Source: Amoebidium appalachense
Taxonomy: Eukaryota; Protista; Ichthyosporea
Reading direction: 5' to 3'
NCBI GenBank assembly: GCA_963693365.1
Contig: CAVNZM010000012.1
Location: 5,654,889-5,718,888, forward strand
Length of the DNA stretch: 64,000 bases
Position numbers and translations under genes: made by a program. A model generated the notes under the pieces. The model was not told the origin of the DNA. It saw only the letters and a program-made list of their open reading frames with translations, and did no database searches. Below, piece by piece: positions 4,163 to 33,013 of the stretch. Each line of letters starts with the position of its first letter. The first letter of the stretch is position 1.

Positions 4163-4164
4163 TC

Positions 4165-5458: not shown

Positions 5459-8400
5459 ACCGCACGGGTGAGCATAAGCAGCTCACTGACACGAAAATAG
5501 CACTCAAATCCAAGCAAAACAACAATACCAAACAAGGGGCCAATTTTGGAAAACAAATGATGGCCAATGACGAGGACCAATGAAAACGGAAGCGGGGGCG
5601 TGGTCTTTGCTGGAACAAGCCGGTTCCAGGGCCTGCAGGCTCCGTTGGGCGGCCTGCAGGTGTGGACCCAGGCGTGGCATGAAATGCTTGATGCCGGCAG
5701 CTGTGTTGACACAGCGCTGACGCTGGCCACGCGATGGATCAATGGCATAACACTCCTCAAAATACTCCACCAGGAGGTCGTCCAGTTCGGCGGGGGACTT
5801 GGTGTCGGTGCCAGGGGGCAACCTATCCAGGAACTCAACAACAGCATCCCGGTAGGCCTTGAGGGTTGGGGGCTTTATAGCCTGGTCAGCCAGAAAACCG
5901 CGAGGGACCATCTGCAGGATTGTGGGCTGACGGCAGCCACACACAATACAGACGAATGTCGAGGGCAAGCGTGTAGGCAGCCACCTGGTGCCGGGGGGCG
6001 GACGGGCTTGGCTCGTGCACAGGACCAGACAGCTGGCTGTAGTGGCCACGCCGGTTGCAGTGAGGAAGCACTTCGCGGAGAAGCGTTGCTGGAAGCACCC
6101 GGGACAGCACTGCACCACCCAACAAGGAAGCATCAGTGCAGAACATGGTGCTAGCAAACCCAGAACGCAAATCACAACCCATCAAAGGGGCCAAAGCACA
6201 CATCGCCTGAAGCTCCCACACCACGGGCGGGGGAAGGGGCTGTTCCCGACCCCCCAGCTGCTCCACAAAACTGTAGACGGCACTCAGAACCGACAAAAGC
6301 GGCCGCTGCAGCAGTGCCGCCCACACCCAACCACCAAGCAACTGCTGCAAACGGAGCTGCGTGACGACACCACGACTCAACACGGCCTGGGTTTCCGCCA
6401 CCAGACGGCACAAGGAAGCGCCACACGGTCGTAATATCCCAGAGCGATGCATTTCCAGGCCTAGCAGCACCATAGAGGATGACGAACCAGCAGCCACATC
6501 TTGACATTGGAGGGAAGACCAGCCGGGCCGGTGACGCCATGATACGATTCACGCTGACGATGGATGGCGGTGGCATCTGTGCCGACCCAGCCACAGTCGT
6601 CCACATACAGGGCATGCTGCGTGGCCTCCACAGGCCGCAGCACTATCGCACAGAGGCGCTCAATGCGGGGCATGCCGGCTCGGTCAGCCAACTGCCCATG
6701 GACGTCTTGAGCCACAAGCACAGAATGCACCCAGCCCGTGGGCACGGTCTTGAGGGCCGGGTACACAAGCCGGTCGGGCCCAGAAATGCCAACAGCCTCC
6801 GAAGACACAGGCGGCAATCCGAAGTACCGCCACAGCCACTCCGGGGCAAGAAGACGATGGAACTGGTTGTCGATGTCCGACTTGCCAAAATAGAGGCAAT
6901 CCTCAGGCCCCAGCAACAGATCGGCAAAATCGGCAGGTTTGGGCAGGTGCACCTTGAGGGCAGGATGATCACGGGCAAAGAACAGGTTGCCACGGCAGCC
7001 GTCAAAAATGACGCGGGCTCTGGTGTCTTTGGGGACCCCAAACAGCCCATTCTTATGCCAACGTCGTCTTTGCCAGCCCCAGCAAGGGGATACATGAGCC
7101 GGTGCCTGTGGATCAATCTCACAAGCAGGCACAGGTGTGCTCCACAGGAGCAATGAAAAGAATGACAAATGTCATACAGAAACATGCTCAAAAAACGTAG
7201 CCTAGTGCCTAAATAGGCAAAGGGTGTGGTGGGTGGGCAAAAACTTAGCTACAAAATTGGGCCTAAAGAGACCTAAACGCGCTCAGTAGCGCCGCAACTG
7301 ACCTCCCTGGGGCCGCGCAAGCTCATTATAGAGCGCGGCCCACATTTTTGCTTATGGAAATATGAAGAAATGACTTAGAACCTATCAAATCCATGAAATC
7401 TACCAAAATGGAATTTTTGCTGCACATCAACCAATGAAAAATTTTCACAAGTGGCTAAAACCCCTAGATCATAAAGACCAAATCGATTGCCGCCCATTTC
7501 GGACTAGATATAACTCAAACTCATCAATATATCCATGTGGCATATCCCACAGAACATAAAAACAGCTACAGCTCCCTAAATAAAAATGCTAGCAGCCTGA
7601 AACTTTGCACACACATCACACACACCAAGACCTACAACATGTTACTACTACGAATTTTACAGCACACTCGCAACACACAATTTCACTCCAACGGGGCTAT
7701 CTAATTCTCCTGCAAAGAAAACACGTTTACAAACTTAATATTGATGGCCAGTGGTTTTTCCTTCGCCTCGAAATAGTGCACCATGCCGCAGTCTTGAAGC
7801 CGAAGAAGCAGGGGACCGTATTCCCCACTGGGAACGTGATGCGCCGGTCGGAAGCGGCGCAGCTCTGCAGGTGTCGGCGGAACAGGCTTGAGAAGGCCGC
7901 CGTCGCAGTTGGCCAAAAACGGCTCAGCGTAGGAGACAAAAACTGCAACACGTCCACTGTGGCTCCAACCCCAGGGGGTGGCAAAGCGGCATTTGCCGCC
8001 GTGAGAGGTAGCCATCCTGTCAATACAGGGTAGGCCGCGGGGAACGCAGCCAAGACACTACTCGCAGGCTGAGCGTCGTAGATTCCCGCGCGTATAGCAT
8101 CGTAGCTGGCCCTAAGGACAAAGGTCCACAGGGCATGGTGGTGACTGTTCACCAACCGGGTCGGGAATGGGCAAGGGCCGCCTGCCCACAGCTCGTTGAG
8201 GGCACCAAGACAACGGTTAGCCAAGGTAACCCCCTTCAGGCGGTGAGACAGACGTTGCCGACGGCGTTGACTCCGTAGACGGGCTTGTCCAGAACGGTCC
8301 GGCACAGGAATGGCCGGAACAGGAAACAAATCAGAGGCGGCAAAGACATGACGTGGCATAGCTGTGGAATCCTTAGAAAAATTAGGGGGCATATTTAATC

Positions 8401-9365
8401 AAGGGCACGTGGCAGGAAACCACAAGAAAATAATATACAGAACCGCGTGCCGAACCCCCAAAGGGCTGTTTAGGCCCTGTGCCCACCGGTCCCCGGAGGG
8501 GTCGATGGACTGGCTCCGGATGGGCCACTGCCGGGACCGCGCCGAGCTCAGCAGTCTGCACAGCCAGCAGACGGCGCACACCAACTTCCACAGCAGGTGA
8601 CTCCTTGCGGGCCTTAGGGTCGGCGGCCAGCAGCAGATCCAGCGTACGGGCAAGCGTCAGAGCCTCCCGTTTGTTGCGGTAGCTGACCCAATCCGCCGTG
8701 TGGACAGCCGCAGTGAACGAGGCCTGGTCAGCCAAGGTGCTCTTGAGGTAGGAAGGGGCCAGACGTTCTTTGACGCGCAGGTTGACTTTGGCGCCGCTGG
8801 AGAGCAGATAACGGCTGGGGTTGGGTTTGGAACGGCCAGAAAAACGACGGCTGCGAGAGGAACGACCGTAGCCACTGCTGCTGGAATCAGAATCCTCACT
8901 CGACGATGGGGTGTCTTCACTGCCGGTGTCGTACGCATAGACAGGCTCCTTGCCCTTTGCCCGCGCAGACAGCGTGCTCAGCAGGCCGCCGGCAGAGGGC
9001 TTCTTGGAGCGACCAGACTGGGCAACAGAGAGGGCTTGCACTTGGGCAGAAAGCGCCTGCAGCTTCTCTTGGACGTCTACACCGTCAGAATGCCGCTGGG
9101 GAGAGGGCGACCCAGGTGGGGGGGAGGCACGGCCGCTGCGAATAGTGCGACAGAGCAAGTGCAGCTGGTCGGCGACTTTCCAACCGACCATCTCAGGGTC
9201 ATCAAAAGCCACCGAGCGCGCCTTCAGGGCTGAAACCACACTGTTGACGGTTTCTGCCGGCAGGCTGTTCCAGGGGAGGGCATTGGACTGCAAAACGACC
9301 AGACTTTTGAGACTTGCGTCGTCCGCATCGGTAGAGATCTCCAAAAGCTTTTCAAGGAGAGCGGC
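5459..9365 (-). mobile_element. Large decayed family 1 copy (ORF1, RT/RNaseH, YR N-terminus) interrupted by a solo A-B unit; repeated at ~15777-19683
   Basis: ORFs 8382-9344 (ORF1), 7727-8392, 6461-7168 (YVDD), 5886-6497 (CTDAS) and 5504-6175 are collinear with the reference copy. Confidence 0.9.
7050..7740 (-). mobile_element. Solo A-spacer-B unit (691 bp) inserted in the RT ORF
   Basis: Flanks rejoin to the uninterrupted RT sequence GCCATCAA|TGGGCTG seen at ~27331-27346. Confidence 0.92.
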
Positions 9366-10013
9366 GTGGTCTTTGCTGGAACAAGCCGGTTCCAGCCCTG
9401 CAGGCTTCGTTGGGCGGCCTGCAGGTGTGGACCCAGGCGTGGCATGAAATGCTTGATGCCGGCAGCTGTGTTGACACAGCGCTGACGCTGGCCAGGCGAT
9501 GGATCAATGGCATAACACTCCTCAAAATACTCCACCAGTAGGTCGTCCAGTTCGGCGGGGGACTTGGTGTCGGTGCCAGGGGGCAACCAATCAGGAACTC
9601 AACAACAGCATCCAGGTAGGCCTTGAGGGTTGGGGGCTTTATAGCCTGGTCAGCCAGAAAACCGCCAGGGACCATCTGCAGGATTGTGGGCTGACGGCAG
9701 CCACACACAATACCTGCCTACACTATGCTAATCAGCACAGGGACTGGACGCACACAGCAGTCAAAAGGCTCTACATCCCCGAATATTCGCTACCAATATC
9801 ACCTGCATATCTCGCACACGGAGTCCTGTTACTCTGTCTCCGGTGCTGTCCAATGTTCTTGCAAAGAAAAAACGTTTACAAACTAATCATTATATTCGAA
9901 ACAAAATGTGTTCTTATGCCAACGTCGTCTTTACCAGCCCCAGCAAGGGGATACATGAGCCGGTGCCTGTGGGTCAATCTCACAAGCAGGCACCGGTGTG
10001 CTCCACAGGAGCA
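9361..10013 (-). mobile_element. YR N-terminus/RNaseH end (9361-9710), deleted family 2 A' repeat (9711-9889), 21-bp unique spacer, family 1 B2 (9911-10013); repeated at ~19684-20290
   Basis: Pieces match 28680-29710, 41110-41438 and 31014-31109 respectively. Confidence 0.8.
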
Positions 10014-10317
10014 ATTAAAAGAATATTTAATTTGCAGGAGAATTATATATAACCCCGTTGGAGTGAGATTGTGTGTTGCGAGTGTGCTGTAACATTCATA
10101 GTAGTTGCATGTTGTAGGCCTTGGTATGTTTGATGCGTGTGCAAAGTCTCAGGCTGCTAGCATTTTTATTGAGGGAGCTGTAGCTGTTTTTATGTTCTGT
10201 TGGATATGCCATATGGATATAATGATGTGTTTGAGTTATATCTAGTCCGAAATGGGCGGCAATTGATTTGGTCTTTGTGATCTAGGGGTTTTAGCCACTT
10301 GTGAAAAATTTTCATTG

Positions 10318-13300
10318 GTTGATGTGCAGCAAAAATTCCATTTTGGTAGATTTCATGGATTTGATAGGTTCTAAGTCTTTCTTCATATTTCCAGAGGCGA
10401 AAATGTGGGCCGCGCTATGTAATGAGTTTGCGCGGCCCCAGGGAGGTCAGTTGCGGCGCTACTGAGCGCGTTCAGGTCTCTTTAGGCCCAATCTTTTAGC
10501 TAAGTTTTTGCAACTCTAGTCCCCGTTTTTCGCGCGGTTGTTCGTTTTTTCTCCAGTTTTTTTTGCCCAGGAGCGCGTGCGTAGCTTAGGCAGAGCATTT
10601 GGTAAGAATTTTGCGTGCACGCCGTTGCGTTTTAGCTGGTGTTCGGACGTTTTTTGAGGTGTCGTTTTTCCCGCGTTTTTGTATTTTCCAGTCTTCGTTT
10701 TCAAGTTTTCGTGCTCTAGTCTGGTTTTTGAGCATTGCAATGACCCCTCCTCCTGCTCTGGTCGCCAAGGGGGCCGCTCTCCTCGAAAAGCTTTTGGAGA
10801 TCTCTATCGATGCGGACGACGCAAGTCTCAAAAGTCTGGCCGTTTTGCAGTGGGGTGGGTGGGCAAAAACTTAGCTAAAAAATTGGGCCTAAAGAGACCT
10901 AAACGCGCTCAGTAGCGCCGCAACTGACCTCCCTGGGGTCGCGCAAGCTCATTATAGAGCGCGGCCCACATTTTTGCCTATGGAAATATGAAGAAATGAC
11001 TTAGAACCTATCAAATCCATGAAATCTACCAAAATTTTGCTGCACATCAACCAATGAAAAATTTTCACAAGTGGCTAAAACCCCTAGATCACAAAGACTA
11101 AATCAATTGCCGCCCATTTCGGACTAGATATAACTCAAACTCATCAATATATCCATATGGCATATCCCACAGAACATAAAAACAGCTACAGCTCCCTAAA
11201 TAAAAATGCTAGCAGCCTGAAACTTTGCACACACATCAAACACACCAAGGCCTACACCATGCTACTACTACGAACTTTACAGCACACCCGCAACACACAA
11301 TTTCACTCCAACGGGGCTATCTAATTCTCCTGCAAAGAAAACACATTTACAAACTTAATATTCTTATGCCAACGTCGTCTTTACCAGCCCCAGCAAGGGG
11401 GTACATGAACCGGTGCCTGTGGATCAATCTCACAAGCAGGCACAGGTGTGCTCCACCACTCCCTACCTGGCACGGGAAGGAACGAACCATGCCGTGGGTG
11501 ACTGACGCAGCGCTGCAGCCCGGGCAAGGAGCGACGCAGGCACGCGAATAGAAAGAACAAGAGACTGGCCGGCCTGCACATACCGGCGGAGGGAGGCATG
11601 CGATCTCCATCGACCACGCAGAGCGATCGTCTCTACTGAAACACCCCTGACATAGTCTCTTGAGGCACCACCATGGCGAAGACTGTGAAGATGGAACCCA
11701 TACTCGTTGAGGCCGAGGGAGTCACATGCCGCTTGGAACTTGGAACGCAGAACATCATACGAGAAAGGAAACAGCCGCGCAGAAGGGGGGGGCGCCACGG
11801 AACCAGAAAGACAGGATGGCCAACAGGGACGGATCGGTGATGGGGACAATATTAAGTTTGTAATCGTGTTTTCTTTGCAGGAGAATTAGATAGCCCCGTT
11901 GGAGTGAAATTGTGTGTTGCGAATGTGCTGTAAACTTCGTGGTAGTATAATGCTGTAGGCCATGGTGTGTTTGATGTGTGTGCAAAGTTTCAGGCTGCTA
12001 GCATTTTTATTTAGGGAGCTGTAGCTGTTTTTATGTTCTGTGGGATATGCCATATGGATATATTGATGAGTTTGAGTTATTTCTAGTCCGAAATGGGCGG
12101 CAATCGATTTGGTCTTTATGATCTAGGGGTTTTAGCCACTTGTGGAAATTTTTCATTGGTTGATGTGCCGCAAAAATTCCATTTTGGTAGATTTCATGGA
12201 TTTGATAGGTTCTAAGTCATTTCTTCATATTTTCATAGGCAAAAATGTGGGCCGCGCTCTATAATGAGCTTGCGCGGCCCCAGGGAGGTCAGTTGCGGCG
12301 CTACTGAGCGCGTTTAGGTCTCTTTAGGCCCAATTTTTTAGCTAAGTTTTTGCAACTCTAGTCCCCGTTTCCAGCGGCGTTCTGACGGTGTAGACGTCCA
12401 AGAGCAGCTGCAGGCGCTTTCTGCCCAAGTGCAAGCCCTCTCTGTTGCCCAGTCTGGTCGCCCCAAGAAGCCCTCTGCCGGCGGCCTGCTGAGCACGCTG
12501 TCTGCGCGGGCAATGGGCAAGGAGCCTGTCTATGCGTACGACACCGGCAGTGAAGACACCCCATCGTCGAGTGAGGATTCTGATTCCAGCAGCAGTGGCT
12601 ACGGTCTTTCCTCTCGCAGCCGTCGTTCCTCTGGCCGTTCCAAACCCAACCCCAGCCGTTATCTGCTCTCCAGCGGCGCCAAAGTCAACCTGCGCGTCAA
12701 AGAACGTCTGGCCCCTTCCTACCTCAAGAGCACCTTGGCTGACCAGGCCTCGGTCACTGCGGCTGTCCACACGGCGGATTGGGTCAGCTACCGCAACAAA
12801 CGGGAGGCTCTGACGCTTGCCCGTATGCTGGATCTGCTGCTGGCCGCCGACCCTAAGGCCCGCAAGGAGTCACCTGCTGTGGAAGTTGGTGTGCGCCGTC
12901 TGCTGGCTGTGCAGACTGCTGATCAGTCCAACGGGGACTGGGCTGTTGCAGAGCAGTTTGAGGAGCTCCCTGCGCGCAGCCTGCCCCTGCCCCCTGCCTT
13001 GGCCACCCGGGCTGTTCGTCAAGCCAAGACCCTCGCCGAAGTCACCCGGGCTCGGCGCGGTCCCGGCAGTGGCCCATCCGGAGCCGGTCCATCGACCCCT
13101 CCGGGGACCGGTGGGCACAGGGCCTAAACGGCCCTTTGGGGGTTCGGCACGCGGTTCGGTATATTATTTTCTTGTGGTTTCCTGCCACGTGCCCTTGATT
13201 AAATATGCCCCCTAATTTTTCTAAGGATTCCACAGCTATGCCACGTCATGTCTTTGCCGCCTCTGATTTGTTTCCTGTTCCGGCCATTCCTGTGCCGGAC

Positions 13301-16300
13301 CGTTCTGGACAAGCCCGTCTACGGAGTCAACGCCGTCGGCAACGTCTGTCTCACCGCCTGAAGGGGGTTACCTTGGCTAACCGTTGTCTTGGTGCCCTCA
13401 ACGAGCTGTGGGCAGGCGGCCCTTGCCCATTCCCGACCCGGTTGGTGACCAGTCACCACCATGCCCTGTGGACCTTTGTCCTTAGGGCCAGCTACGATGC
13501 TATACGCGCGGGTGTCTACGACGCTCAGCCTGCGAGTAGTGTCTTGGCTGCGTTCCCCGCGGCCTACCCTGTATTGACTGGATGGCTACCTCTCACGGCG
13601 GCAAATGCCGCTTTGCCACCCCCTGGGGTTTGGACCGGTCTTGGTGTCGGCCAGGCGGATGCCGCCTGTACCGGGTGGCATGTCGTGGGGAACGGGGTCG
13701 TCGGGCAAAATAAGATCCGCACGGGTGAGCATAAGCAGCTCACTGACACGAAAATAACACTCAAATCCAAGCAAAACAGCAATACCAAACAAGGGGCCAA
13801 TTTTGGAATACAAATGATGGCCAATGACGAGGACCAATGAAAACGGAAGCGGGGGCGTGGTCTTTGCTGGAACAAGCCGGTTCCATCCCTGCAGGCTCCG
13901 TTGGGCGGCCTGCAGGTGTGGACCCAGGCGTGGCATGAAATGCTTGATGCCGGCAGCTGTGTTGACACAGCGCTGACGCTGGCCACGCGATGGATCAATG
14001 GCATAACACTCCTCAAAATACTCCACCAGGAGGTCGTCCAGTTCGGCGGGGGACTTGGTGTCGGTACCAGGGGGCAACCAATCCAGGAACTCAACAACAG
14101 CATCCCGGTAGGACTTGAGGGTTGGGGGCTTGGTCAGCCAGAAAACCGCGAGGGACCATCTGCAGGATTGTGGGCTGACGGCAGCCAGACACAATACAAA
14201 CGAATGTTGAGGGCAAGCGTGTAGGCAGCCACCTGGCGGCATACACGGTTCAGGCGTCGGGATGCTGAACGACCCTTAGCAACAGCCCCAAGCAGCGCCG
14301 TCGAATCAAGGCCCCAAAGGTAGCGGGAGCCCCGGGCAGCCGTAGACCGACCTAATCGACGAAGCCCCAGGAGCAAGGCTTCTCCCTCCAGAATGTTGAT
14401 GTGGTCGGAGTGGCGCCAACGATGACTGATGTTGGTGGTCCACCGGCCACCAACAGCTGCCAGGATAGGTGCCGGGGGGGTCCAAATTTTTTGCTAAGTT
14501 TTGCAACTCTAGTCCCCGTTTTTCGCGCTTTTGTTCGTTTTTTCTCAAGTTTTTTTTGCCCAGGAGCGCGTGCTTAGCTTCAGCAGCATCTGGTAAGAGT
14601 TTTGCGTGCGCGCCGTTGCGTTTTCGCTGGTTTTCGGACGTTTTTTGCGGTGTCGGTTTTCCCACGTTTTTGCATTTTCCAGTCTTCGTTTTCAAGATTT
14701 CGTGCTCTAGTCTGGTTTGTGAGCATTGCAATGGCCCCTCCTCCTGCTCTGGTCGCCAAGGGGGCCGCTCTCCTCGAAAAGCTTTTGGAGATCTCTATCG
14801 ATGCGGACGACGCAAGTCTCAAAAGTCTGGCCGTTTTGCAGTGGGTGACTGCCGTGGGTGACTGACGCATCGCTGCAGCCCGGGCAAGGAGCGACGCAGG
14901 CACCCGAATAGAAAGAACAAGAGACTGGCCGGCCTGCACATATCGGCGGAGGGAGGCATGCGATCTCCACCGACCACGCAGAGCAATCGTCTCGACCGAA
15001 ACACCCCTGACGTAGTCTCTTGAGGCACCACCATGGCGAAGACTGTGAAGATGGAACCCATAATCGTTGAGGCCGAGGGAGTCACATGCCGCTTGGAACT
15101 TGGCACGCAGAACATCATACGAGAAAGGAAACCGCCGCGCAGAAGGGGGGGCACCACGGAACCAGAAAGACAGGATGGCCAACAGGGACGGATCGGTGAT
15201 GGGGACAAACTGATTTGGACCGGTCTTGGTGTCGGCCAGGCGGATGCCGCCTGTACCGGATGGCATGTTGTGGGGAACGGGGTCGTCGGGCAAAACAAGA
15301 TCCGCACAGGTGAGCATAAGCAGCTCATTGACACGAAAAAAACACTTCTTATGCCAACGTCGTCTTTACCAGCCCCAGCAAGAGTTGCAAAAACATAGCT
15401 AATAAATTGGGCCTAAAGAGACCTAAACACGCTCAGTAGCGCCGCAACTGACCTCCCTGGGGAAGCGCAAGCTCATTATATAGTGCGGCCCACATTTTTG
15501 CCTATGGAAATATGAAGAAATGACTTAGAACCTATCAAATCCATGAAATCTTCCAAAATGGAATTTTGCTGCACATCAACCAATGAAAAATTTTCACAAG
15601 TGGCTAAAACCCCAAGATCACAAAGACCAAATCGATTGCAGCCCATTCCGGACTAGATATAACTCAAACTCATCAATATATCCATATGGCATATCCCACA
15701 GAACATAAAAACAGCTAAAATAAACATGCTAGCAGCCTGAAACTTTGCACACACATCAAACACACCATGGCCTACAACCGCACGGGTGAGCATAAGCAGC
15801 TCACTGACACGAAAATAGCACTCAAATCCAAGCAAAACAACAATACCAAACAAGGGGCCAATTTTGGAATACAAATGATGGCCAATGACGAGGACCAATG
15901 AAAACGGAAGCGGGGGCGTGGTCTTTGCTGGAACAAGCCGGTTCCAGGGCCTGCAGGCTCCGTTGGGCGGCCTGCAGGTGTGGACCCAGGCGTGGCATGA
16001 AATGCTTGATGCCGGCAGCTGTGTTGACACAGCGCTGACGCTGGCCACGCGATGGATCAATGGCATAACACTCCTCAAAATACTCCACCAGGAGGTCGTC
16101 CAGTTCGGCGGGGGACTTGGTGTCGGTGCCAGGGGGCAACCTATCCAGGAACTCAACAACAGCATCCCGGTAGGCCTTGAGGGTTGGGGGCTTTATAGCC
16201 TGGTCAGCCAGAAAACCGCGAGGGACCATCTGCAGGATTGTGGGCTGACGGCAGCCACACACAATACAGACGAATGTCGAGGGCAAGCGTGTAGGCAGCC

Positions 16301-19300: not shown

Positions 19301-20594
19301 AGGCCGCCGGCAGTTGGCTTCTTGGGGCGACCAGACTGGGCAACAGAGAGGGCTTGCACTTGGGCAGAAAGCGCCTGCAGCTTCTCTTGGACGTCTACAC
19401 CGTCAGAATGCCGCTGGGGAGAGGGCGACCCAGGTGGGGGGGAGGCACGGCCGCTGCGAATAGTGCGACAGAGCAAGTGCAGCTGGTCGGCGACTTTCCA
19501 ACCGACCATCTCAGGGTCATCAAAAGCCACCGAGCGCGCCTTCAGGGCTGAAACCACACTGTTGACGGTTTCTGCCGGCAGGCTGTTCCAGGGGAGGGCA
19601 TTGGACTGCAAAACGACCAGACTTTTGAGACTTGCGTCGTCCGCATCGGTAGAGATCTCCAAAAGCTTTTCAAGGAGAGCGGCGTGTTGGGCGGCCTGCA
19701 GGTGTGGACCCAGGCGTGGCATGAAATGCTTGATGCCGGCAGCTGTGTTGACACAGCGCTGACGCTGGCCAGGCGATGGATCAATGGCATAACACTCCTC
19801 AAAATACTCCACCAGTAGGTCGTCCAGTTCGGCGGGGGACTTGGTGTCGGTGCCAGGGGGCAACCAATCAGGAACTCAACAACAGCATCCAGGTAGGCCT
19901 TGAGGGTTGGGGGCTTTATAGCCTGGTCAGCCAGAAAACCGCCAGGGACCATCTGCAGGATTGTGGGCTGACGGCAGCCACACACAATACCTGCCTACAC
20001 TATGCTAATCAGCACAGGGACTGGACGCACACAGCAGTCAAAAGGCTCTACATCCCCGAATATTCGCTACCAATATCACCTGCATATCTCGCACACGGAG
20101 TCCTGTTACTCTGTCTCCGGTGCTGTCCAATGTTCTTGCAAAGAAAAAACGTTTACAAACTAATCATTATATTCGAAACAAAATGTGTTCTTATGCCAAC
20201 GTCGTCTTTACCAGCCCCAGCAAGGGGATACATGAGCCGGTGCCTGTGGGTCAATCTCACAAGCAGGCACCGGTGTGCTCCACAGGAGCAATTAAAAGAA
20301 TATTTAATTTGCAGGAGAATTATATATAACCCCGTTGGAGTGAGATTGTGTGTTGCGAGTGTGCTGTAACATTCATAGTAGTTGCATGTTGTAGGCCTTG
20401 GTATGTTTGATGCGTGTGCAAAGTCTCAGGCTGCTAGCATTTTTATTGAGGGAGCTGTAGCTGTTTTTATGTTCTGTTGGATATGCCATATGGATATAAT
20501 GATGTGTTTGAGTTATATCTAGTCCGAAATGGGCGGCAATTGATTTGGTCTTTGTGATCTAGGGGTTTTAGCCACTTGTGAAAAATTTTCATTG
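10318..20594. repeat. Copy 2 of the 10.3-kb tandem repeat
   Basis: Near-identical to 1-10317 apart from a few substitutions, one extra G near 11790 and a 41-bp deletion near 19685. Confidence 0.95.
17368..18058 (-). mobile_element. Solo A-spacer-B unit (tandem-repeat copy of 7050-7740)
   Basis: Same sequence and same flanks as 7050-7740. Confidence 0.92.
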
Positions 20595-21060
20595 GTTGAT
20601 GTGCAGCAAAAATTCCATTTTGGTAGATTTCATGGATTTGATAGGTTCTAAGTCTTTCTTCATATTTCCAGAGGCGAAAATGTGGGCCGCGCTATGTAAT
20701 GAGTTTGCGCGGCCCCAGGGAGGTCAGTTGCGGCGCTACTGAGCGCGTTCAGGTCTCTTTAGGCCCAATCTTTTAGCTAAGTTTTTGCAACTCTAGTCCC
20801 CGTTTTTCGCGCGGTTGTTCGTTTTTTCTCTAGTTTTTTTTGCCCAGGAGCGCGTGCGTAGCTTAGGCAGAGCATTTGGTAAGAATTTTGCGTGCACGCC
20901 GTTGCGTTTTAGCTGGTGTTCGGACGTTTTTTGAGGTGTCGTTTTTCCCGCGTTTTTGTATTTTCCAGTCTTCGTTTTCAAGTTTTCGTGCTCTAGTCTG
21001 GTTTTTGAGCATTGCAATGACCCCTCCTCCTGCTCTGGTCGCCAAGGGGGCCGCTCTCCT
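20595..21060. repeat. Start of a third unit; the array ends inside A-repeat/ORF1 homology
   Basis: Matches 1-~470, then substitutions accumulate and ORF1 continues normally past 21128 instead of taking the junction seen at 533. Confidence 0.8.
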
Positions 21061-21686
21061 CGAAACGCTTTTGGAGATCTCTACCGATGCTGACGACGCA
21101 AGCCTCAAAAGTCTGGCCGTTTTGCAGTCCAACGCCCTCCCCTGGAACAGCCTGCCGGCAGAAACCGTCAACAGTGTGATTTCTTTCAGCCCTCAAGGCG
21201 CGCTCGGTGGCTTTTGATGACCCTGAGATGGTCGGTTGGAAAGTCACCGACCAGCTGCACTTGCTCTGTCGCACTCCTCGCAGCGGACGTGCCTTCCCCC
21301 CACCTGGGTCGCCCTCTCCCCAGCATCGTTCTAACGGTGTAGACGTCCAAGAGCAGCTGCAGGCGCTTTCTGTCCAAGTACAAGCCCTCTCTGTTGCCCA
21401 GTCTGGTCGCCCCAAGAAGCCCTCTGCCGGCGGCCTCCTGAGCTCGCTGTCTGCGCGGCCAAAGGGCAAGGAGCCTGTCCATGTGTCTGACACCGGCAGT
21501 GAAGACACCCCATTGTCGAGTGAGGATTCTTCTTCCAGCAGCAATGGCTACGGTCGTTCCTCTCGCAGCCGTCGTTCCTCTGGCCGTTCCAAACTCAATT
21601 CCAGCCGTTACCTGCTCTCCAGCGGCGCCAAAGTCAACCTGCGCGTCAAAGAACGTCTGGCCCCTTCCTACTCAAGAGCACCTTGG
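21017..21686 (+). pseudogene. Family 1 ORF1 5' two-thirds, frameshifted
   Basis: ORFs 20876-21217 and 21207-21764 match ORF1. Confidence 0.85.
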
Positions 21687-22140
21687 CCTGCAAACACCGG
21701 CGGAGGGAGGCATGCGATCTCCACCGACCACACAGAGCAATCGTCTCTACTGAAACACCCCTGACGTAGTCTCTCGAGGCACCACCAGGGCGAAGACTGT
21801 GAAGATGGAACCCATACTCGTTGAGGCCGAGGGAGTCACATGCCGCTTGGAACTTGGCACGCAGAACATCATACGAGAAAGGAAACAGCCGCGCAGAAGG
21901 GGGGGCACCACGGAACCAGAAAGACAGGATGGTCAACAGGGATGGATCGGTCTCAGCAGTCTGCACAGCCAGCAGACGGCGCACACCAACTTCCACAGCA
22001 GGCGACTCCTTGCGGGCCTTAGGGTCGGCAGCCAGCAGCAGCTCCAGCATACGGGCAAGCGTCAGAGCCTCCTGTTTGTTCCGGTAGCTGACCCAATCCG
22101 CCGCGTGGACACCCGCAGTGACCGAAGCCTGGTCAGCCAA
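21687..22140 (-). pseudogene. Fusion of ORF1 middle to YR C-terminal fragment
   Basis: ORF 21646-22140 reads ADQASVT...QTAE (ORF1) then TDPSLL...HSLRPGG (YR). Confidence 0.85.
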
Positions 22141-22832
22141 TATTAAGTTTGTGAACGTGTTTTTTTTGCAGGAGAATTAGATAGCCCCGTTGGAGTGAAA
22201 TTGTGTGTTGCGAGTGTGCTGTAAATTTCTTGGTAGTATAATGCTGTAGGCCATGGTGTGTTTGATGTGTGTGCAAAGTTTCAGGCTGCTAGCATTTTTA
22301 TTTAGGGAGCTGTAGCTGTTTTTATGTTCTGTGGGATATGCCATATGGATATATTGATGAGTTTGAGTTATATCTAGTCCGAAATGGGCGGCAATCGATT
22401 TGGTCTTTATGATCTAGGGGTTTTAGCCACTTGTGAAAATTTTTCATTGGTTGATGTGCAGCAAAAATTCCATTTTGGTAGATTTCATGGATTTGATAGG
22501 TTCTAAGTCATTTCTTCATATTTCCATAGGCAAAAATGTGGGCCGCGCTCTATAATGAGCTTGCGCGACCCCAGGGAGGTCAGTTGCGGCGCTACTGAGC
22601 GCGTTTAGGTCTCTTTAGGCCCAATTTTTTTAGCTGAGTTTTTGCCCACCCACCACACCCTTTGCCTATTTAGGCACTAGGCTACGTTTTTTGAGCATGT
22701 TTCTGTATGACATTTGTCATTCTTTTCATTGCTCCTGTGGAGCACACCTGTGCCTTCTTGTGAGATTGATCCACAGGCACCGGCTCATGTATCCCCTTGC
22801 TGGGGCTGGTAAAGACGACGTTGGCATAAGAA
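22141..22832 (+). mobile_element. Solo A-spacer-B unit (692 bp) inserted antisense in ORF1
   Basis: A 22141-22645, B 22737-22832; flanks GGTCAGCCAA|GATGCTCTTGAGG rejoin the ORF1 reverse strand. Confidence 0.92.
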
Positions 22833-22909
22833 GATGCTCTTGAGGTAGGAAGGGGCCAGATGTTCAAAGAACGTCTGGGCCAGATGTTCAAAGAACGTCT
22901 GGCCCCTTC

Positions 22910-23210
22910 ATCGGCTCATGTATTCCCTTGCTGGGGCTGGTAAAGACGACGTTGGCATAAGAAATGCCATTGATCCATCGCGTGGCCAGCGTCAACGCTG
23001 TGTCAACACAGCTGCCGACATCAAGCATTTCATGCCACGCCTGGGTCCACACCTGCAGGCCGCCCAACGAAGCCTGCAGGGCTGGAACCGGCTTGTTCCA
23101 GCAAAGACCACGCCCCCGCTTCCGTTTTCTTTGGTCCTTGTCATTGGCCATCATTTATATTTTAAAATTGGCCCCTTGTTTGGTATTGCTGTTTTGCTTG
23201 GATTTGAGTG
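22910..23210 (+). mobile_element. B-repeat end joined to a YR N-terminal fragment
   Basis: CATAAGAA then AIDPSRGQ...LLGFEC (ORF 22918-23358). Confidence 0.8.
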
Positions 23211-23216
23211 TTGCCG

Positions 23217-23623
23217 TTATGCCGATTTGCCGTTATGCTCAGCAAAGTCCCTTGCAGACCTGAGAACTTCAGCACGAGAAACCCCTAACCCCCTCCCAGC
23301 CAGGAACACCAGCCCACTAGCAAGGCCAATCCCTCATCTGCTGTTAGAATGGGCTTAGGGCCCGGTGTCTTGTTTCCATACTCAGGGTCTTTTGCGTGTC
23401 TGTAGAGGGTTGCAATGGAAAAGCCAGTGGTTGCAGCTACTTCGGCAACCCGTTGCTTGACTGAGCTTCTCTTCTTTAGCTGTCTAGTTGCCTGTTCCAT
23501 GAACATGAGATAATACTTGGGCCCGTACTTGTAACCCTGCTTTATTACACTAGGTTCACTGCGGGTGGGCCCTTTTTTGCGAAGCTCTGGCATAGGCTTG
23601 TTTTTTTGGGGAACCTTTGCCAT
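23217..23623 (-). pseudogene. pogo/Tigger-like transposase N-terminal DNA-binding fragment (tandem HTH, CENP-B-like)
   Basis: VAEVAATTGFSIATLYRH...PGPKPILTADE..LLVGWC, continuing after a frameshift as GLGVSRAEVLRSARDFA; this resembles the psq-type HTH plus CENP-B HTH pattern. No DDE domain is present. Confidence 0.6.
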
Positions 23624-24069
23624 TTCCTGACACGCAGTTAAAACAGTGCTGTACTATGCATACTAGTGTTGTGGTCAACTATGAAGGCCAACGCTATCCC
23701 GAGCATCACGTGCTCACACAGCTACCTACCCCTACAATATTACACCCAAAACAAAGGCCCAAGCTACTCAAAAACACCTATTCAGTTGAAAAGAAAGTGT
23801 TTGTGCCCGTTTATTATGTAGAAAACATGTCCAAAGGGTTTCGACCCGCAGCTCATGAGAGCTCACATTTCACGTTCTGGGTATCGGAGAAGCGCCGTTT
23901 TTTTTTCCGTTGCAGGTCTGAGTGTCAGTAACCGCCCCACCCAATTCCCCGCGCATATTCAAAATAACCAATGAGAAAAAAACGCATGAAGAAAGAAAAT
24001 AACCAAGTATGGGATCATAAGTTTCTCACGATATATCGGTCTCTCAAGATTCGTAGGATTGCCCCTACA

Positions 24070-24819
24070 CCATATGGATATATTGATGAGTGTGAGTTAT
24101 ATCTAGTCCGAAATGGGCGGCAATTGATTTGGTCTTTGTGATCTAGGGGTTTTAGCCACTTGTGAAAATTTTCATTGGTTGAGGTGCAGCAAAAATTCCA
24201 TTTTGGTAGATTTCATGGATTTGATAGATAGGTTCTAAGTCATTTCTTCATATTTCCAGAAGCAAAAATGTCGGCCGCGCTATATAATGAGCTTGCGCGG
24301 CCCCAGGCAGATCAGTTGAGGCGCTACTGAGCGCGTTTAGGTCTCTCTAGGCCCAATTTTTTAGCTAAGTTTTTGCAACTCTAGTCCCCGTTTTTCGCGC
24401 TGTTTTTCGTTTTTTCTCTAGTTTTTCTCATTTTTTCTAGTTTCTAGTTTCATCTAGTTTTTTTTTTTTCCTGAGGATTCCACAGCTATGCCACGACATG
24501 TCTTTCCCCCCTCTGATTTGTTTCCTGTTCCGGCCATTCCTGTGCCGGACCGTTCTGGGAAAGACCGTTTACGGAGTTGTCGGAAACGTTTGTCTCACCG
24601 CCTGAAGGGGTTATAGGAGTCAGTTGCGGCGCTACTGAGCGCGTTTAGGTCTCTTTAGGCCCCATTTTTTAGCTAAGTTTTTTGAAACTCTAGTCCCCGT
24701 TTTTCGCGCTGTTGTTCGTTTTTTCTCTAGTTGTTTTTGCCCAGGAGCGCGCGCATAGCTTCGGCAGCATCTGGTAAAAGTTTTGCGTGCGCACCGTTGC
24801 GTTTTAGCTGGGTTTCGGA
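24070..24819 (+). mobile_element. Two deleted family 1 5' ends (partial A, leader, RT ORF start)
   Basis: Match to the A repeat 3' half, the leader and GGATTCCACAGCTATGCC. Confidence 0.8.
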
Positions 24820-25322
24820 TATTTAGTTTGTAAACGTGTTTTCTTTGCAGAAGAATTAGATAGCCCCGTTGGAGTGCAATTGTGTGTTGCTAGTGTGCTG
24901 TAAAATTCGTAGTAGTAGCATGTTGTAGGCCTTGGTGTGTTTGGTGTGTGTGCAGAGTTTCAGGCTGCAAGCATTTTAATTTAGGGAGCTGTAGCTGTTT
25001 TTATGAACTGTGGGATATGCCATATGGATATATTGATGAGTTTGAGTTATATCTAGTCTGAAATGGGCGGTAATTGATTTGGTCTTTGTGATCTAGGGGT
25101 TTTAGCCACTTGTGAAAAATTTTCATTGGTTGATGTGCAGCAAAAATTCCATTTTGGTAGATTTCATGGATTTGATAGGTTTTAAGTCATTTCTTCATAT
25201 TTCCATAGGCAAAAATGTGGGCCGCGCTATATAATGAGCTTGCGCGGCCCCAGGGAGGTCAGTTGCGGCGCTACTGAGCGCGTTTAGGTCTCTTTAGGCC
25301 CAATTTTTTAGCTAAGTTTTGC
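24820..25322 (+). repeat. A1 split direct repeat (~503 bp)
   Basis: Direct repeat of 30415-30923. Confidence 0.92.
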
Positions 25323-25548
25323 AACTCTAGTCCCCGTTTTTCGCGCTGTTGTTCGTTTTTTCTCTAGTTTGTTTTGCACAGGAGCGCGCGCTTAGATTAG
25401 GCAGCATCTCATAAGAGTTTTGCGTGCGCGCGGCTGCGTTTTAGCTGGTTTTCGGACGTTTTTTGCGGTGTCGGTTTTCCCGCGTTTTTGCATTTTCCAG
25501 TCTTCGTTTTCAAGTTTTCGTGCTCTAGTCTGGTTTGTGAGCATTGCA

Positions 25549-26604
25549 ATGGCCCCTCCTCCTACTCTGGTCGCCAAGGGGGCCGCTCTCCTCGAAAAGC
25601 TTTTGGAGATCTCTACCAATGCGGACGCCGCAAGTCTCAAAAGATTCGCCGTTTTGCAGTCCAACGCCCTCCCCTGGAACAGCCTGCCGGCAGAAACCGT
25701 CAACAGTGTGGTTTCAGCCATCAAGGCGCGCTCGGTGGCTTTCGATGACCCTGAGATGGTCGGTTGGAAAGTCACCGACCAGCTGCACTTGCTCTGTCGC
25801 ACTCCTCGCAGCGGCCGTGCCTCCCCCCCACCTGGGTCGCCCTCTCCCCAGCGGCGTTCTGACGGTGTAGACGTCCAAGAGCAGCTGCAGGCGCTTTCTG
25901 CCCAAGTGCAAGCCCTCTCTGTTGCCCAGTCTGGTCGCCCCAAGAAGCCCTCTGCCGGCGGCCTGCTGAGCACGCTGTCTGCGCGGCCAAAGGGCAAGGA
26001 GCCTGTCCATGTGTCTGACACCGGCAGTGAAGACACCCCATTGTCGAGTGAGGATTCTGATTCCAGCAGCAGTGGCTACGGTCGTTCCTCTCGCAGCCGT
26101 CGTTCCTCTGGCCGTTCCAAACCCAACCCCAGCCGTTACCTGCTCTTCAGCGGCGCCAAAGTCAACCTGGGCGTCAAAGAACGTCTGGCCCCTTCTTCCC
26201 TCAAGAGCACCTTGGCTGACCAGGCCTCGGTCACTGCGGTTGTCCACGCGGCGGATTGGGTCAGCTACCGCAACAAACGGGAGGCTCTGACGCTTGCCCG
26301 TATGCTGGATCTGCTGCTGGCCGCCGACCCTAAGGCCCGCAAGGAGTCACCTGCTGTGGAAGTTGGTGTGCGCCGTCTGCTGGCTGTGCAGACTGCTGAT
26401 AAGTCCAACGGGGACTGGGCTGTTGCAGAGCAGTTTGAAGAGCTCCCTGCGCGCAGCCTGCCCCTGCCCCCTGCCTTGGCCACCCGGGCTGTTCGTCAAG
26501 CCAAGACCCTCGCCGAAGTCACCCGGGCTCGGCGCGGTCCCGGCAGCGCCCCATCCGGGGCCGGTCCATCGACCCCTCCGGGGACCGGTGGGCACAGGGC
26601 CTAA
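25549..26604 (+). CDS. ORF1, gag-position protein (351 aa), open
   Basis: ATG at 25549 within ORF 25420-26604; lies before the RT ORF; has a coiled-coil-like stretch and a Ser-rich linker; no CCHC knuckle seen. Confidence 0.8.
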   Translation: MAPPPTLVAKGAALLEKLLEISTNADAASLKRFAVLQSNALPWNSLPAETVNSVVSAIKARSVAFDDPEMVGWKVTDQLHLLCRTPRSGRASPPPGSPSPQRRSDGVDVQEQLQALSAQVQALSVAQSGRPKKPSAGGLLSTLSARPKGKEPVHVSDTGSEDTPLSSEDSDSSSSGYGRSSRSRRSSGRSKPNPSRYLLFSGAKVNLGVKERLAPSSLKSTLADQASVTAVVHAADWVSYRNKREALTLARMLDLLLAADPKARKESPAVEVGVRRLLAVQTADKSNGDWAVAEQFEELPARSLPLPPALATRAVRQAKTLAEVTRARRGPGSAPSGAGPSTPPGTGGHRA

Positions 26605-26681
26605 ACGGCCCTTTGGGGGTTCGGCACGCGGTTCTGTATATTATTTTCTTGTGGTTTCCTGCCACGTGCCCTTGATTAAAT

Positions 26682-28740
26682 ATGCCCCCTAATTTTTCTA
26701 AGGATTCCACAGCTATGTCACGTCATGTCTTTGCCGCCTCTGATTTGTTTCCTGCTCCGGCCATTCCTGTGCCGGACCGTTCTGGACAAGCCCGTCTACG
26801 GAGTCAACGCCGTCGGCAACGTCTGTCTCACCGCCTGAAGGGGGTTACCTTGGCTAACCGTTGTCTTGGTGCCCTCGACGAGCTGTGGGCAGGCGGCCCT
26901 TGCCCATTCCCGACCCGGTTGGTGAACAGTCACCACCATGCCCTGTGGACCTTTGTCCTTAGGGCCAGCTACGATGCTATACGCGGCGCGGGTGTCTACG
27001 ACGCTCAGCCTGCGAGTAGTGTCTTGGCTGCATTCCCTGCGGCCTACCCTGTATTGACAGGATGGCTACCTCTCACGGCGGCAAATGCCGCTTTGCCACC
27101 CCCTGGGGTTGGAGCCACAGTGGACGTGTTGCAGTTTTTGTCTCCTACGCTGCCAGCCGTTTTTGGCCAACTGCGACGGCGGCCTTCTCAAGCCTGTTCC
27201 GCCGACGCCTGCAGAGCTGCGCCGCATCCGACCGGCGCATCACGTTCCCAGTGGGGAATACGGTCCCCTGCTTCTTCGGCTTCAAGACTGCGGCATGGTG
27301 CACTATTTCGAGGCGAAGGAAAAACCACTGGCCATCAATGGGCTGTTTGGGGTCCCCAAAGACACCAGAGCCCGCGTCATTTTTGACGGCCGCCGTGGCA
27401 ACCTGTTCTTTGCCCGTGATCATCCTGCCCTCAAGGTGCACCTGCCCAACCCTGCCGATTTTGCCGATCTGTTTCTGGGGCCTGAGGATTGCCTCTATTT
27501 TGGCAAATCGGACATGGACAAGCAGTTCCATCGTCTTCTTGCCCCGGAGTGGCTGCGGCGGTACTTCGGATTGCCGCCTGTGTCTTCGGAGGCTGTTGGC
27601 ATTTCTGGGCCCGACCGGCTTGTGTACCCGGCCCTCAAGACCGTGCCCATGGGCTGGGTGCATTCTGTGCTTGTGGCTCAAGACGTCCATGGGCAGTTGG
27701 CTGACCGAGCCGGCATGCCCCGCATTGAGCGCCTCTGTGCGATAGTGCCGCGGCCTGTGGAGGCCACGCAGCATGCCCTGTATGTGGACGACTGTGGCTG
27801 GGTTGGCACAGATGCCACCGCCATCAATCGTCAGCGTGAATCGTATCATGGCGTCACCGGCCCGGCTGGTCTTCCCTTCAATGTCAAGAAGGAGGTGGCT
27901 GCTGGTTCGTCATCCTCTATGGTGCTGCTAGGCCTGGAAATGCATCGCTCTGGGATATTGCGCCCGTCTGGCGCTTCCGTGTGCTGTCTGGTGGCGGAAA
28001 CCCAGGCCGTGTTGCGTCGTGGTGTCGTCACACAGCTCCGTTTGCAGCAGTTGCTTGGTGGTTGGGTGTGGGCGGCACTGCTGCAGCGTCCGCTTTTGTC
28101 GGTTCTGAGTGCCGTCTACAGTTTTGTGGAGCAGCTGGGGGGTCGGGAACAGCCCCTTCCCCCGCCCGTTGTGTGGGAGCTTCAGGCGATGTGTGCTTTG
28201 GCCCCTTTGATGCGTTGTGATTTGCGTTCTGGGTTTGCTAGCACCATGTTCTGCACTGATGCTTCCGTGTTGGGTGGTGCAGTGGTGTCCCGGGTGCTTC
28301 CAGCAACGCTTCTCCGTGAAGTACTGCCTCACTCCAACCGGCGTGGCCACTACAGCCAGCTGTCTGGTCCTGTGCACCAGCCAAGCCCGTCCGCCCCCCC
28401 GGCACCTATCCTGGCAGCTGTTGGTGGCCGGTGGACCACCAACATCAGTCATCGTTGGCGCCACTCCGACCACATCAACATTCTGGAGGGAGAAGCCTTG
28501 CTCCTGGGGCTTCGTCGATTAGGTCGGTCTACGGCTGCCCGGGGCTCCCGCTACCTTTGGGGCCTTGATTCGACGGCGCTGCTTGGGGCTGTTGCTAAGG
28601 GTCGTTCAGCATCCCGACACCTTAACCGTGCATGCCGCCAGGTGGCTGCCTACACACTTGCCCTCGACATTCGTTTGTATTGTGTGTGGCTGCCGTCAGC
28701 CCACAATCCTGCAGATGGTCCCTCGCGGTTTTCTGGCTGA
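26682..28740 (+). pseudogene. Reverse transcriptase / RNase H (DIRS-type) with one +1 frameshift near 27153
   Basis: LFGVPK, RVIFD, KSDMDKQF, VPMGW, YVDD, CTDAS, HINILEGEA, LDS, HNPADGPSR. Confidence 0.93.
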
Positions 28741-30320
28741 AAAGGCCATTCTTATGCCAACGTCGTCTTTACCAGCCCCAGCAAGGGGATACATGAGCCG
28801 GTGCCTGTGGATCAATCTCACAAGCAGGCACAGGTGTGCTCCACAGGAGCAATGAAAAGAATGACAAATGTCATACAGAAACATGCTCAAAAAACGTAGC
28901 CTAGTGCCTAAATAGGCAAAGGGTGTGGTGGGTGGGCAAAAACTTAGCTAAAAAATTGGGCCTAAAGAGACCTAAACGCGCTCAGTAGCGCCGCAACTGA
29001 CCTCCCTGGGGCCGCGCAAGCTCATTTTAGAGCGCGGCCCACATTTTTGCCTATGGAAATATGAAGAAATGACTTAGAACCTATCAAATCCATGAAATCT
29101 ACCAAAATGGAATTTTTGCTGCACATCAACCAATGAAAAATTTTCACAAGTGGCTAAAACCCCTAGATCATAAAGACCAAATCGATTGCCGCCCATTTCG
29201 GACTAGATATAACTCAAACTCATCAATATATCCATATGGCATATCCCACAGAACATAAAAACAGCTACAGCTCCCTAAATAGAAATGCTAGCAGCCTGAA
29301 ACTTTGCACACACATCAAACACACCATGGCCTACAGCATTATACTACCACGAAGTTTACAGCACACTCGCAACACACAATGTCACTCCAACGGGGCTATC
29401 TAATTCTCCTGCAAAGAAAACACGTTTACAAACTTAATATAAAGCCCCCAACCCTCAAGGCCTACCGGGATGCTGTTGTTGAGTTCCTGGATTGGTTGCC
29501 CCCTGGCACCGTCACCAAGTCCCCCGCCGAACTGGACGACCTCCTGGTAAAGTATTTTGAGGAGTGTTATGCCATTGATCCATCGCGTGGCCAGCGTCAG
29601 CGCTGTGTCAACACAGCTGCCGGCATCAAGCATTTCATGCCATGCCTGGGTCCACGCCTGCAGGCCACCCAACGGAGCCTGCAGGGCTGGGACCGGCTTG
29701 TTCCAGCAAAGACCACACCCCCGCCTCCGTTTTCATTGGTCCTCGTCATTGGATATCATTTGTATTCCAAAATTGGCCCCTTGTTTGGTATTGCTGTTTT
29801 GCTTGGATTTGAGTGCTATTTTCGTGTCAGTGAGCTACTTATGCTCATCCGTGCGGATCTTCTTTTGTCCAACGACCCCGTTCCCCACGACATGCTACCC
29901 AGTACAGGCGGCATCCGCCCGGTCCAAATCAGTTTGTCCCCACCACCGATCCGTCACTGTTGCCCATCCTGTCTTTCTGGATCCGTGGTGCCCTTCTGCG
30001 CGGCTGTTTCCTTTTTCGTATGATGTTCTGCGTGCCAAGTTCCAAGCGGCATGTGACTCCTCGGCCTCAACGAGTATGGGTTCCATCTTCACAGTCTTCG
30101 CCATGGTGGTGCCTCGAGAGACTACGTCAGGGGTGTTGCGGCAGAGACGATTGCTCTGCGTGGTCGGTGGAGATCGCATGCCACCCTCCGCCGGTATGTG
30201 CAGGCCGGCCAGTCTCTTGTTCTTTCTATTCGGGTGCCTGCGTCGCTCCTTGCCTGGGCTGCAGCGCTGCGTCAGTCACCACGGCATGGTTCGTTCCTTC
30301 CCGTGCCAGAGAGGGAGTGG
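28715..30320 (+). pseudogene. Tyrosine recombinase, split by a solo A-B insertion and frameshifted
   Basis: MVPRGFLA..IKPPTLKAY, ECYFRVSEL, HSLRHGGA, RGRW, RRYV; the start overlaps the RT stop. Confidence 0.9.
28749..29439 (-). mobile_element. Solo A-spacer-B unit (691 bp) inserted inverted at the YR 5' end
   Basis: Flanks GGCCA|TAAAGCCC match the uninterrupted GGCTA|TAAAGCCC (reverse strand ~5869-5883). Confidence 0.92.

Positions 30321-32974: not shown

Positions 32975-33013
<39 letters not shown>

What the first reader, a model, noticed from the sequence alone, without database searches (positions are those of the whole stretch)
7050..29439. Solo A-spacer-B units: a solo-LTR equivalent, or mini-element, for split-repeat YR retrotransposons
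Seen: three independent ~691-bp units (7050-7740 and its copy 17368-18058; 22141-22832; 28749-29439) have precise ends TATTAAG...CATAAGAA and no target duplication. Each cleanly interrupts a different ORF of the same family (RT, ORF1, YR), in either orientation. They look more uniform than the surrounding A copies. Inference: either A1xA2 recombination products of full insertions, or a non-coding unit mobilised in trans by the YR. Either way they disable autonomous copies.
Basis: partly seen in the sequence, partly recalled or inferred. Interest (0 to 1): 0.75.

Follow-up and report, generated by a model that had tools for sequence, protein, structure and literature searches.

The report
Solo end-repeats of Ngaro-type retrotransposon
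Three gene-less 691-base pieces match the tail end of a jumping gene and sit inside older, already broken copies of that same jumping gene; they are likely leftovers of full insertions whose middle was looped out, a kind of remnant already described in other organisms.

Summary
Four 691-692-bp units (three independent) equal the A2-spacer-B2 tail of an A1-ORF1-RT/RH-YR-B1-A2-spacer-B2 (Ngaro-type) retrotransposon. Their flanks rejoin into empty RT, ORF1 and YR sites with no added or lost base. An A precedes the cut at 6 of 7 junctions, solo or not. A self-propagating mini-element is not supported: no column is solo-specific, a full-type A1 is the nearest relative of two solos (1.4-2.0%), and solo monophyly is rejected (p-AU 0.029, n small). 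Contig depths in two related runs weakly suggest that solos are a minority. 'Disabling autonomous copies' is not supported, because all three hosts carry other lesions. Best reading: solo-LTR equivalents left by A1xA2 recombination (about 0.65). Direct integration of short A-B circles spun off full elements is not excluded (about 0.2). Solo AB repeats, and both origins, are already in print (Cafeteria Ngaro, PMC8547959; SIRE/VIPER, PMC6681497), and this scan noted such solos before on other genomes. New member of a known kind.

The parts
7050..7740 (-). Solo A-spacer-B unit (691 bp) inside an RT ORF copy, sense to host
   Evidence: empty site 27317-27360, 0 mismatches
17368..18058 (-). Identical copy of the 7050 solo in the 10.3-kb tandem duplication; not an independent event
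22141..22832 (+). Solo A-spacer-B unit (692 bp) inside a short ORF1 remnant, antisense to host
28749..29439 (-). Solo A-spacer-B unit (691 bp), 8 bp after the RT/RH stop, in the N-terminal part of the YR frame, antisense to host
   Evidence: the skip of 691 is seen in 4 of 4 runs
24820..25320 (+). A1 of the near-full reference copy; precise left end inserted in another copy's 5' leader
25549..26604 (+). ORF1 (Gag-like by position only; no Pfam hit)
27058..28740 (+). RT/RNase H frame (YVDD; DAS...HINILE...DS...NPADGPSR); carries a 1-base insertion near 27153 relative to the dominant contigs
29440..30321 (+). YR region of the host copy, with four indels relative to the dominant contigs
   Evidence: HSLRH...RW...Y motif in sister copy 33969-34700; weak Phage_integrase hits in sister copies
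30322..31109 (+). B1 (30322-30414), A2 (30415-30920), spacer (30921-31017), B2 (31018-31109): the tail whose A2-spacer-B2 part equals the solo
1532..3312 (+). Truncated full-type insertion (A1, leader, ORF1, RT start) inside a YR copy; its A1 is the nearest relative of two solos
5028..5460 (-). Collapsed remnant of another kind: A1 and the first leader bases joined by deletion to the last 37 bases of B, precise right end in a YR copy
1..35263 (.). Nested cluster of the family: 90% of 1-35263 and 95% of 1-31109 covered at 85% identity or more

Best explanation
The units are the A2-spacer-B2 tail of an Ngaro-type retrotransposon standing alone at clean insertion sites, likely left when a full copy, inserted by its tyrosine recombinase, later lost everything between A1 and A2 by homologous recombination. 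Step 1 (inferred from family knowledge; junctions shown): a cDNA circle with a ...ATAAGAA|TATTAAG... junction is recombined into a target at a shared A core, so nothing is duplicated or lost. Step 2 (inferred): A1 and A2, 502-bp direct repeats about 4.8 kb apart, recombine and leave one A, the spacer and B2 with the original flanks. The solos look uniform because they come from the younger subfamily, which full-type copies share (shown). They lie in family ORFs because the region is almost all family sequence (shown).
For: The unit equals A+spacer+B from first to last base, the exact product of A1xA2. Flanks rejoin exactly in 3 of 3 independent solos. Solo and non-solo ends follow the same junction rule: A before the cut at 6 of 7 junctions with a known empty site, binomial p=0.0009, pattern noticed after the fact. 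There are 0 solo-only columns, and A1_1532 shares the five linked states at columns 98-122 with two solos against the third. Solos form one side of a branch in 0% of 200 bootstrap trees; p-AU 0.029 (10 rows). No sign that the internal B1|A2 junction serves for integration: 0 of 5 independent spacer-B ends are followed by A, and 3 of 3 YR-B ends are. Rearrangement is common here: a 10.3-kb duplication, and a near-full copy whose left and right flanks do not belong to one target. Contig depth YR:spacer:A is 90:92:195 in X15 and 271:445:811 in X8, i.e. about 0% and 18% solos among tails (weak). The same origin is proposed for Cafeteria solo AB repeats (PMC8547959 section 11).
Against: No full allele at a solo's own site was seen, so the collapse is not observed. 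All 3 insertions with both ends intact in the window are solos, and solo 28749 is young (3 of 620 letters from the dominant X2 contig), so collapse would have to be quick. A1 and A2 have 0 fixed differences and no chimera is significant (best raw p=0.009 of 676 triplets, Bonferroni 1), so no crossover can be shown. The tree has no starred branch and only 3 solos. Depth in X2 allows 16-41% solos by my arithmetic and X3 could not be resolved; the tool warns that depth is no copy number; these runs may be other strains or species.
Confidence: 0.65

Rival explanations
1. Direct integration of short A-spacer-B circles spun off active full elements. The circle would come from a sub-genomic A2-spacer-B2 cDNA closed on another copy's B1|A2 junction, or from YR resolving the two B|A junctions of the full circle; the YR then inserts it in trans. 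Each solo would be a one-off product, so no solo clade is expected.
For: It predicts the same ends, exact flanks and interleaved tree. 3 of 3 insertions with both ends intact are solos, and at least one is young. Ribeiro et al. leave trans mobility open for SIRE (PMC6681497, passages).
Against: The partner products of resolution (YR-B1 ends not followed by A2, permuted copies) are absent: 0 of 3 and 0 of 5, though n is small. The solo lacks the internal B|A junction; the analogous internal region is essential for DIRS-1 transposition (PMC7192593, passages; analogy only). Solos look like a minority in depth (weak).
Confidence: 0.2
2. YR-catalysed precise excision between the left insertion junction and the internal B1|A2 junction of an integrated copy, leaving a solo that is wholly A2-derived.
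For: It gives the same product, and both sites carry the A|TATT arm. Inference only.
Against: A loosely specific YR acting on B1|A2 should also give A2-spacer-B2 tails with mismatched flanks; 0 of 3 solos have them. There is no A1/A2 marker to test it with.
Confidence: 0.08
3. A self-propagating non-coding mini-element lineage (solos copied from solos).
For: The three spacers are identical over 97 of 97 bases and the B parts differ at 1-2 sites.
Against: 0 solo-only columns in A, p-AU 0.029 against a solo clade. The solo-type spacer letters are those of the main spacer contig in X15, whose depth equals the YR depth. The lower divergence of spacer+B against A is not significant (Fisher p 0.08-0.30).
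Confidence: 0.07

Closest known systems
Solo AB repeats of Ngaro retrotransposons in Cafeteria burkhardae (Hackl et al. 2021, PMC8547959; passages and section 11 read)
   Same: A1-[ORF1, RT/RH, YR]-B1A2B2 parent; isolated AB units; ascribed to recombination of the 5' and 3' repeats and likened to solo LTRs.
   Different: Another family and host (kinship not tested by tree). Here a 97-bp spacer lies between A2 and B2, the solos sit inside their own family's ORFs with resolved empty sites, and a tree test against a solo clade was run. I saw no such test in the parts read.
SIRE of Trypanosoma cruzi VIPER (Ribeiro et al. 2019, PMC6681497, passages; restated in PMC12278014, passages)
   Same: A (about 185 bp) + unique spacer (about 30 bp) + B (about 220 bp) = the A2-B2 region; no TSD; remnant versus trans-mobile origin is stated as an open question.
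   Different: In VIPER the YR ORF is listed before RT/RH; here YR follows RT/RH. Sizes differ. High SIRE copy number is recalled, not read.
Solo LTRs of LTR retrotransposons (PMC8969392, passages)
   Same: Left by non-allelic homologous recombination between terminal direct repeats, with the insertion flanks kept.
   Different: No TG...CA ends and no TSD. The remnant is A+spacer+B, longer than the recombining repeat. Integration is by tyrosine recombinase.
DIRS-1 of Dictyostelium (PMC7192593, passages)
   Same: YR retroelement found in clusters and nested in its own copies; integration proposed at a short word shared with the circle junction.
   Different: DIRS-1 has inverted repeats with an ICR and a methyltransferase; this family has split direct repeats and no such domain after RNase H.

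Membership tests
Ngaro-like YR retrotransposon (parent) | Split direct repeats A1-[ORFs]-B1-A2-B2 | tested here: met
   copy 24820-31109; second subfamily copy 41439-36734
Ngaro-like YR retrotransposon (parent) | ORF order ORF1, RT/RNase H, YR | tested here: met
   7 of 22 relatives scanned (22 picked of 150 listed) carry Phage_integrase C-terminal to the RT-like part
Ngaro-like YR retrotransposon (parent) | RT domain | tested here: met
   YVDD motif. The window protein itself has no Pfam hit; 16 of 22 relatives hit RVT_1 at E<=0.01, 2 of them above the curated cut-off
Ngaro-like YR retrotransposon (parent) | YR with HxxR and catalytic Tyr | tested here: met
   HSLRH...RW...Y; Phage_integrase E=5.8e-05, below the curated cut-off
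Ngaro-like YR retrotransposon (parent) | No methyltransferase domain (unlike DIRS/PAT) | tested here: met
   The RT frame stops 3 residues after the RNase H end motif; no such Pfam hit
Ngaro-like YR retrotransposon (parent) | ORF1 is Gag-like | tested here: inconclusive
   no Pfam hit; position only
Ngaro-like YR retrotransposon (parent) | Groups with named Ngaro elements in an RT/RH tree | not tested
   The closest relatives looked up carry no informative names; no named references were in hand
Solo AB repeat (solo-LTR equivalent) | ORF-less A-B unit equal to the parent's tail, flanks from one target | tested here: met
   longest ATG frame 55 aa
Solo AB repeat (solo-LTR equivalent) | Derived from a full insertion at the same site | not testable with these tools
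   no genome held; only short contigs; chimera test not significant
Self-propagating non-autonomous mini-element | Copies form their own clade | tested here: not met
   (p-AU 0.029; 3 solos against 7 others)
Self-propagating non-autonomous mini-element | Amplified beyond the parent | tested here: inconclusive
   about 0% (X15) and 18% (X8) of tails; X2 16-41%; X3 unresolved; depth is not copy number

The most novel reading that the evidence does not exclude
Ngaro-type elements shed a 691-bp A2-spacer-B2 circle that their own recombinase integrates directly, so 'solo AB' units and SIRE-like elements would be primary insertions, not remnants. This nested cluster, with three base-resolved empty sites, would be a place to prove it.
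Probability: 0.2. Interest if true: 0.55.

Novelty: new member of a known kind. Interest (0 to 1): 0.22.

Why it matters
Modest. The existence of solo AB units is known. This case adds base-exact empty sites, a minimal A crossover core shared by solo and full-type ends, and a small test that goes against a solo-only lineage. It bears on the question left open for SIRE (remnant or mobile). If solos are remnants, the solo:full ratio measures how hosts purge YR retrotransposons. If they are direct circle insertions, that would be a new by-product of YR replication and would define the smallest substrate of the recombinase.

Tried and rejected
No genome is held for this window, so no genome-wide count or tree was possible. 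An exact 28-base B-end pattern found 0 matches in metagenome contigs. No RNA holder was listed; this says nothing on expression. Circle junctions cannot be phased in contigs because B is longer than the assembly word. A hairpin across the B|A junction was not better than shuffles in 3 of 3 folds (z 0.43, -0.35, 0.25). The chimera test over 676 triplets was not significant after correction. I first read a deep contig with another sequence upstream of B (X2, X3) as an internally deleted derivative; I dropped that because its letters resemble a variant B of a sister subfamily, which also confounds the X2/X3 depth arithmetic. A1_24070 was left out of the tree and the chimera test (short copy); the duplicated copies and the fragments at 1-194, 4161 and 24619 were not included. 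One search was in the wrong frame and was not used. Pfam found nothing on the window's own RT frame or ORF1. The Volvox kangaroo and nematode PAT papers were not held, so earlier descriptions of solos there could not be checked. Searches (solo with Ngaro-like, or with circular intermediate) returned 0 papers; subscription papers such as Goodwin and Poulter 2004 are outside the library, so absence in print is not shown. The host lineage was not resolved: a nearby carnitine acyltransferase piece is 55% identical to the best (MMETSP transcriptome) hit and 36-50% to most others, named ones being animals.
Full report
OBSERVATION. Self-BLAST and alignment confirm four units, at 7050-7740(-), 17368-18058(-), 22141-22832(+) and 28749-29439(-), of 691-692 bp with ends TATTAAG...CATAAGAA. 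The first two are identical and lie in a 10.3-kb, 99.5% tandem duplication, so three events are independent. The flanks rejoin exactly in uninterrupted copies: RT with 0 of 44 mismatches, ORF1 in 5 copies, the YR frame in 4 copies. The skip of 691 bases at 28747-29439 is present in contigs of 4 of 4 runs laid, as expected from other copies of the family. The longest ATG frame in the unit is 55 aa.

PARENT. The copy at 24820-31109 reads A1 (502 bp), leader, ORF1, RT/RNase H, YR, B1 (92), A2, spacer (97), B2. The solo is exactly A+spacer+B. The RT frame has YVDD and RNase H-like motifs (motif names recalled). It has no Pfam hit itself, but 6355 representatives match it at E<=0.001. Of 22 of these that I scanned, 16 hit RVT_1 and 7 carry a C-terminal Phage_integrase above cut-off. 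Window YR fragments show HSLRH...RW...Y and weak Phage_integrase hits. Repeat layout and ORF order match Ngaro as described in PMC8547959 (section 11) and PMC3783388 (passages). A tree with named references was not run. The family covers 95% of 1-31109, so landing in a family ORF is the default here and is no sign that solos target their parent; full-type insertions at 1532 and 24820 do the same.

JUNCTIONS. The internal junction is ...ATAAGAA|TATTAAG.... At 7 junctions with a known empty site (3 solos, 2 full-type left ends, 2 right-end remnants), 6 have A just before the cut (binomial p=0.0009, noticed after the fact). The site at 22963 does not fit. The solos overlap the junction by AAT, AA and AT. 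This fits strand exchange at a short shared core, as proposed for DIRS (PMC7192593, passages), and it does not separate solos from full copies. One search listed 18 B ends: 14 of this family (10 after collapsing the duplication) and 4 of a sister subfamily. Of the 10, the 5 preceded by spacer are never directly followed by A, the 3 preceded by YR always are, and 2 are truncated. So no permuted copy and no A1-ORFs-B1 copy was seen. The B|A junction does not fold better than shuffles.

IS THERE A SOLO LINEAGE? In the A alignment of 11 copies, 0 columns are solo-only and 0 are fixed between A1 and A2. Solos differ by 1.8-3.2%. The full-type A1 at 1532 is 1.4% from solo 28749 and 2.0% from solo 22141, and shares five linked states with them that solo 7050 lacks. 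In the ML tree (10 rows; the short copy 24070 left out) no branch is starred, solos are one side of a branch in 0% of 200 bootstrap trees, and the AU test gives p=0.029 against them as a clade and 4e-05 against A1 copies as a clade. The main contigs of 4 of 4 runs carry the solo-type letters at most of these sites and in the spacer. Uniformity therefore reflects the younger, dominant subfamily. Against this reading: spacers are identical in all three solos, though not significantly more conserved than A, and the sample is small.

ABUNDANCE (weak). Contig word depths, used only as ratios inside one run: X15 has YR 89.5, B1|A 89.8, spacer 92.4 and A 194.9, the 1:1:1:2 pattern of full elements with almost no solos. 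X8 has YR 271, spacer 445 and A 811, about 18% solos among tails. X2 allows 16-41% by my arithmetic; X3 could not be resolved. The tool warns that depth is no copy number, 60 records were not shown, and these runs may be other strains or species.

DO SOLOS DISABLE ACTIVE COPIES? Not shown. The host of 28749 has a 1-base insertion in RT and four indels in YR relative to the dominant contigs. It is 1.5% (ORF1-RT), about 4% (YR) and 3.5% (its own A2-spacer) from them, against 0.5% for the solo. The host of 7050 has a 1-base loss (by comparing), a 4-base gap and two larger deletions. The host of 22141 is a remnant of about 220 bp. The order of events is not known, but the solos more likely entered old, dead copies.

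MECHANISM. Shown: anatomy, exact flanks, shared junction rule, no solo clade, decayed hosts. Inferred: YR integration of a full circle, then A1xA2 recombination (0.65). The cluster shows such rearrangement: the duplication; the near-full copy with unmatched flanks; and a different collapsed remnant at 5028-5460, in which A1 and leader are joined to the end of B. No crossover can be demonstrated. Direct insertion of A-spacer-B circles from full elements predicts the same tree and ends and stays open (0.2). YR excision (0.08) and a solo lineage (0.07) are less likely.

KNOWN OR NEW. Hackl et al. report isolated AB repeats of Ngaro elements, ascribe them to recombination of the 5' and 3' repeats and liken them to solo LTRs (PMC8547959; passages; section 11). 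Ribeiro et al. show that SIRE is the A2-B2 region of VIPER and pose both origins (PMC6681497; passages); PMC12278014 restates this (passages). PMC8969392 (passages) was used for solo LTRs and SDR layout; PMC2685390 and PMC1636488 (passages) only for references. I read no supplements; the Ngaro table of PMC8547959 may bear on solo counts. Earlier scan notes describe such solos in other genomes, one nested in its own pol; none exist for this genome. Searches found no paper that tests a circle origin, within the library's limits. Verdict: real, well resolved, a new member of a known kind; interest 0.22.

Noticed in passing
window 1-21128: Tandem duplication with a 10,317-bp unit, 99.5% identical (7 substitutions over 8,766 compared bases); real or an assembly artefact is not known.
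   Followed up: partly
window 36734-41439 (-), 32058-33287 (-), 9713-9889 (-): A second subfamily with the same A1-ORFs-B1-A2-spacer-B2 layout, RT 65-72% identical, sharing the first ~45 bases of A and the last ~55 of B; the long copy holds microsatellite tracts and a duplicated B-containing block.
   Followed up: partly
window 24820 and 31109: The left and right flanks of the near-full copy do not belong to one target, and its A1 and A2 differ by 5.4%: likely a chimera of two insertions.
   Followed up: partly
window 28841-28937 (-): The 97-bp spacer folds better than 200 of 200 shuffles as RNA (z -3.4) and is identical in all three solos; a possible cis signal.
   Followed up: partly
window 28749-28845 (-), 37289-37385 (-), 32058-32155 (-): B starts with a GUGCCUG/CAGGCAC inverted repeat kept in both subfamilies around different loops; whole-B folding is weak (z -1.6, -0.4, -0.7).
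   Followed up: partly
window 22909-22963 and 9911-10024: Two further precise B ends whose left parts are lost; they may be former solos or full copies.
   Followed up: partly
runs X2, X3 laid on window 30363-30406: A deep contig shares the last ~44 bases of B but has a variant 5' part not seen among the window's B copies: possibly a third subfamily.
   Followed up: no
window 45449-46366 (+): An unrelated reverse transcriptase frame (RVT_1, E=3.9e-33), outside the YR cluster.
   Followed up: no
window 53875-55140 (+): Carnitine acyltransferase fragment (E=1.3e-22) in GC-rich, probably exonic host DNA; best hit 55% identical.
   Followed up: partly
window 41939-43276: Tandem pair of about 660-bp units, 91% identical.
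   Followed up: no
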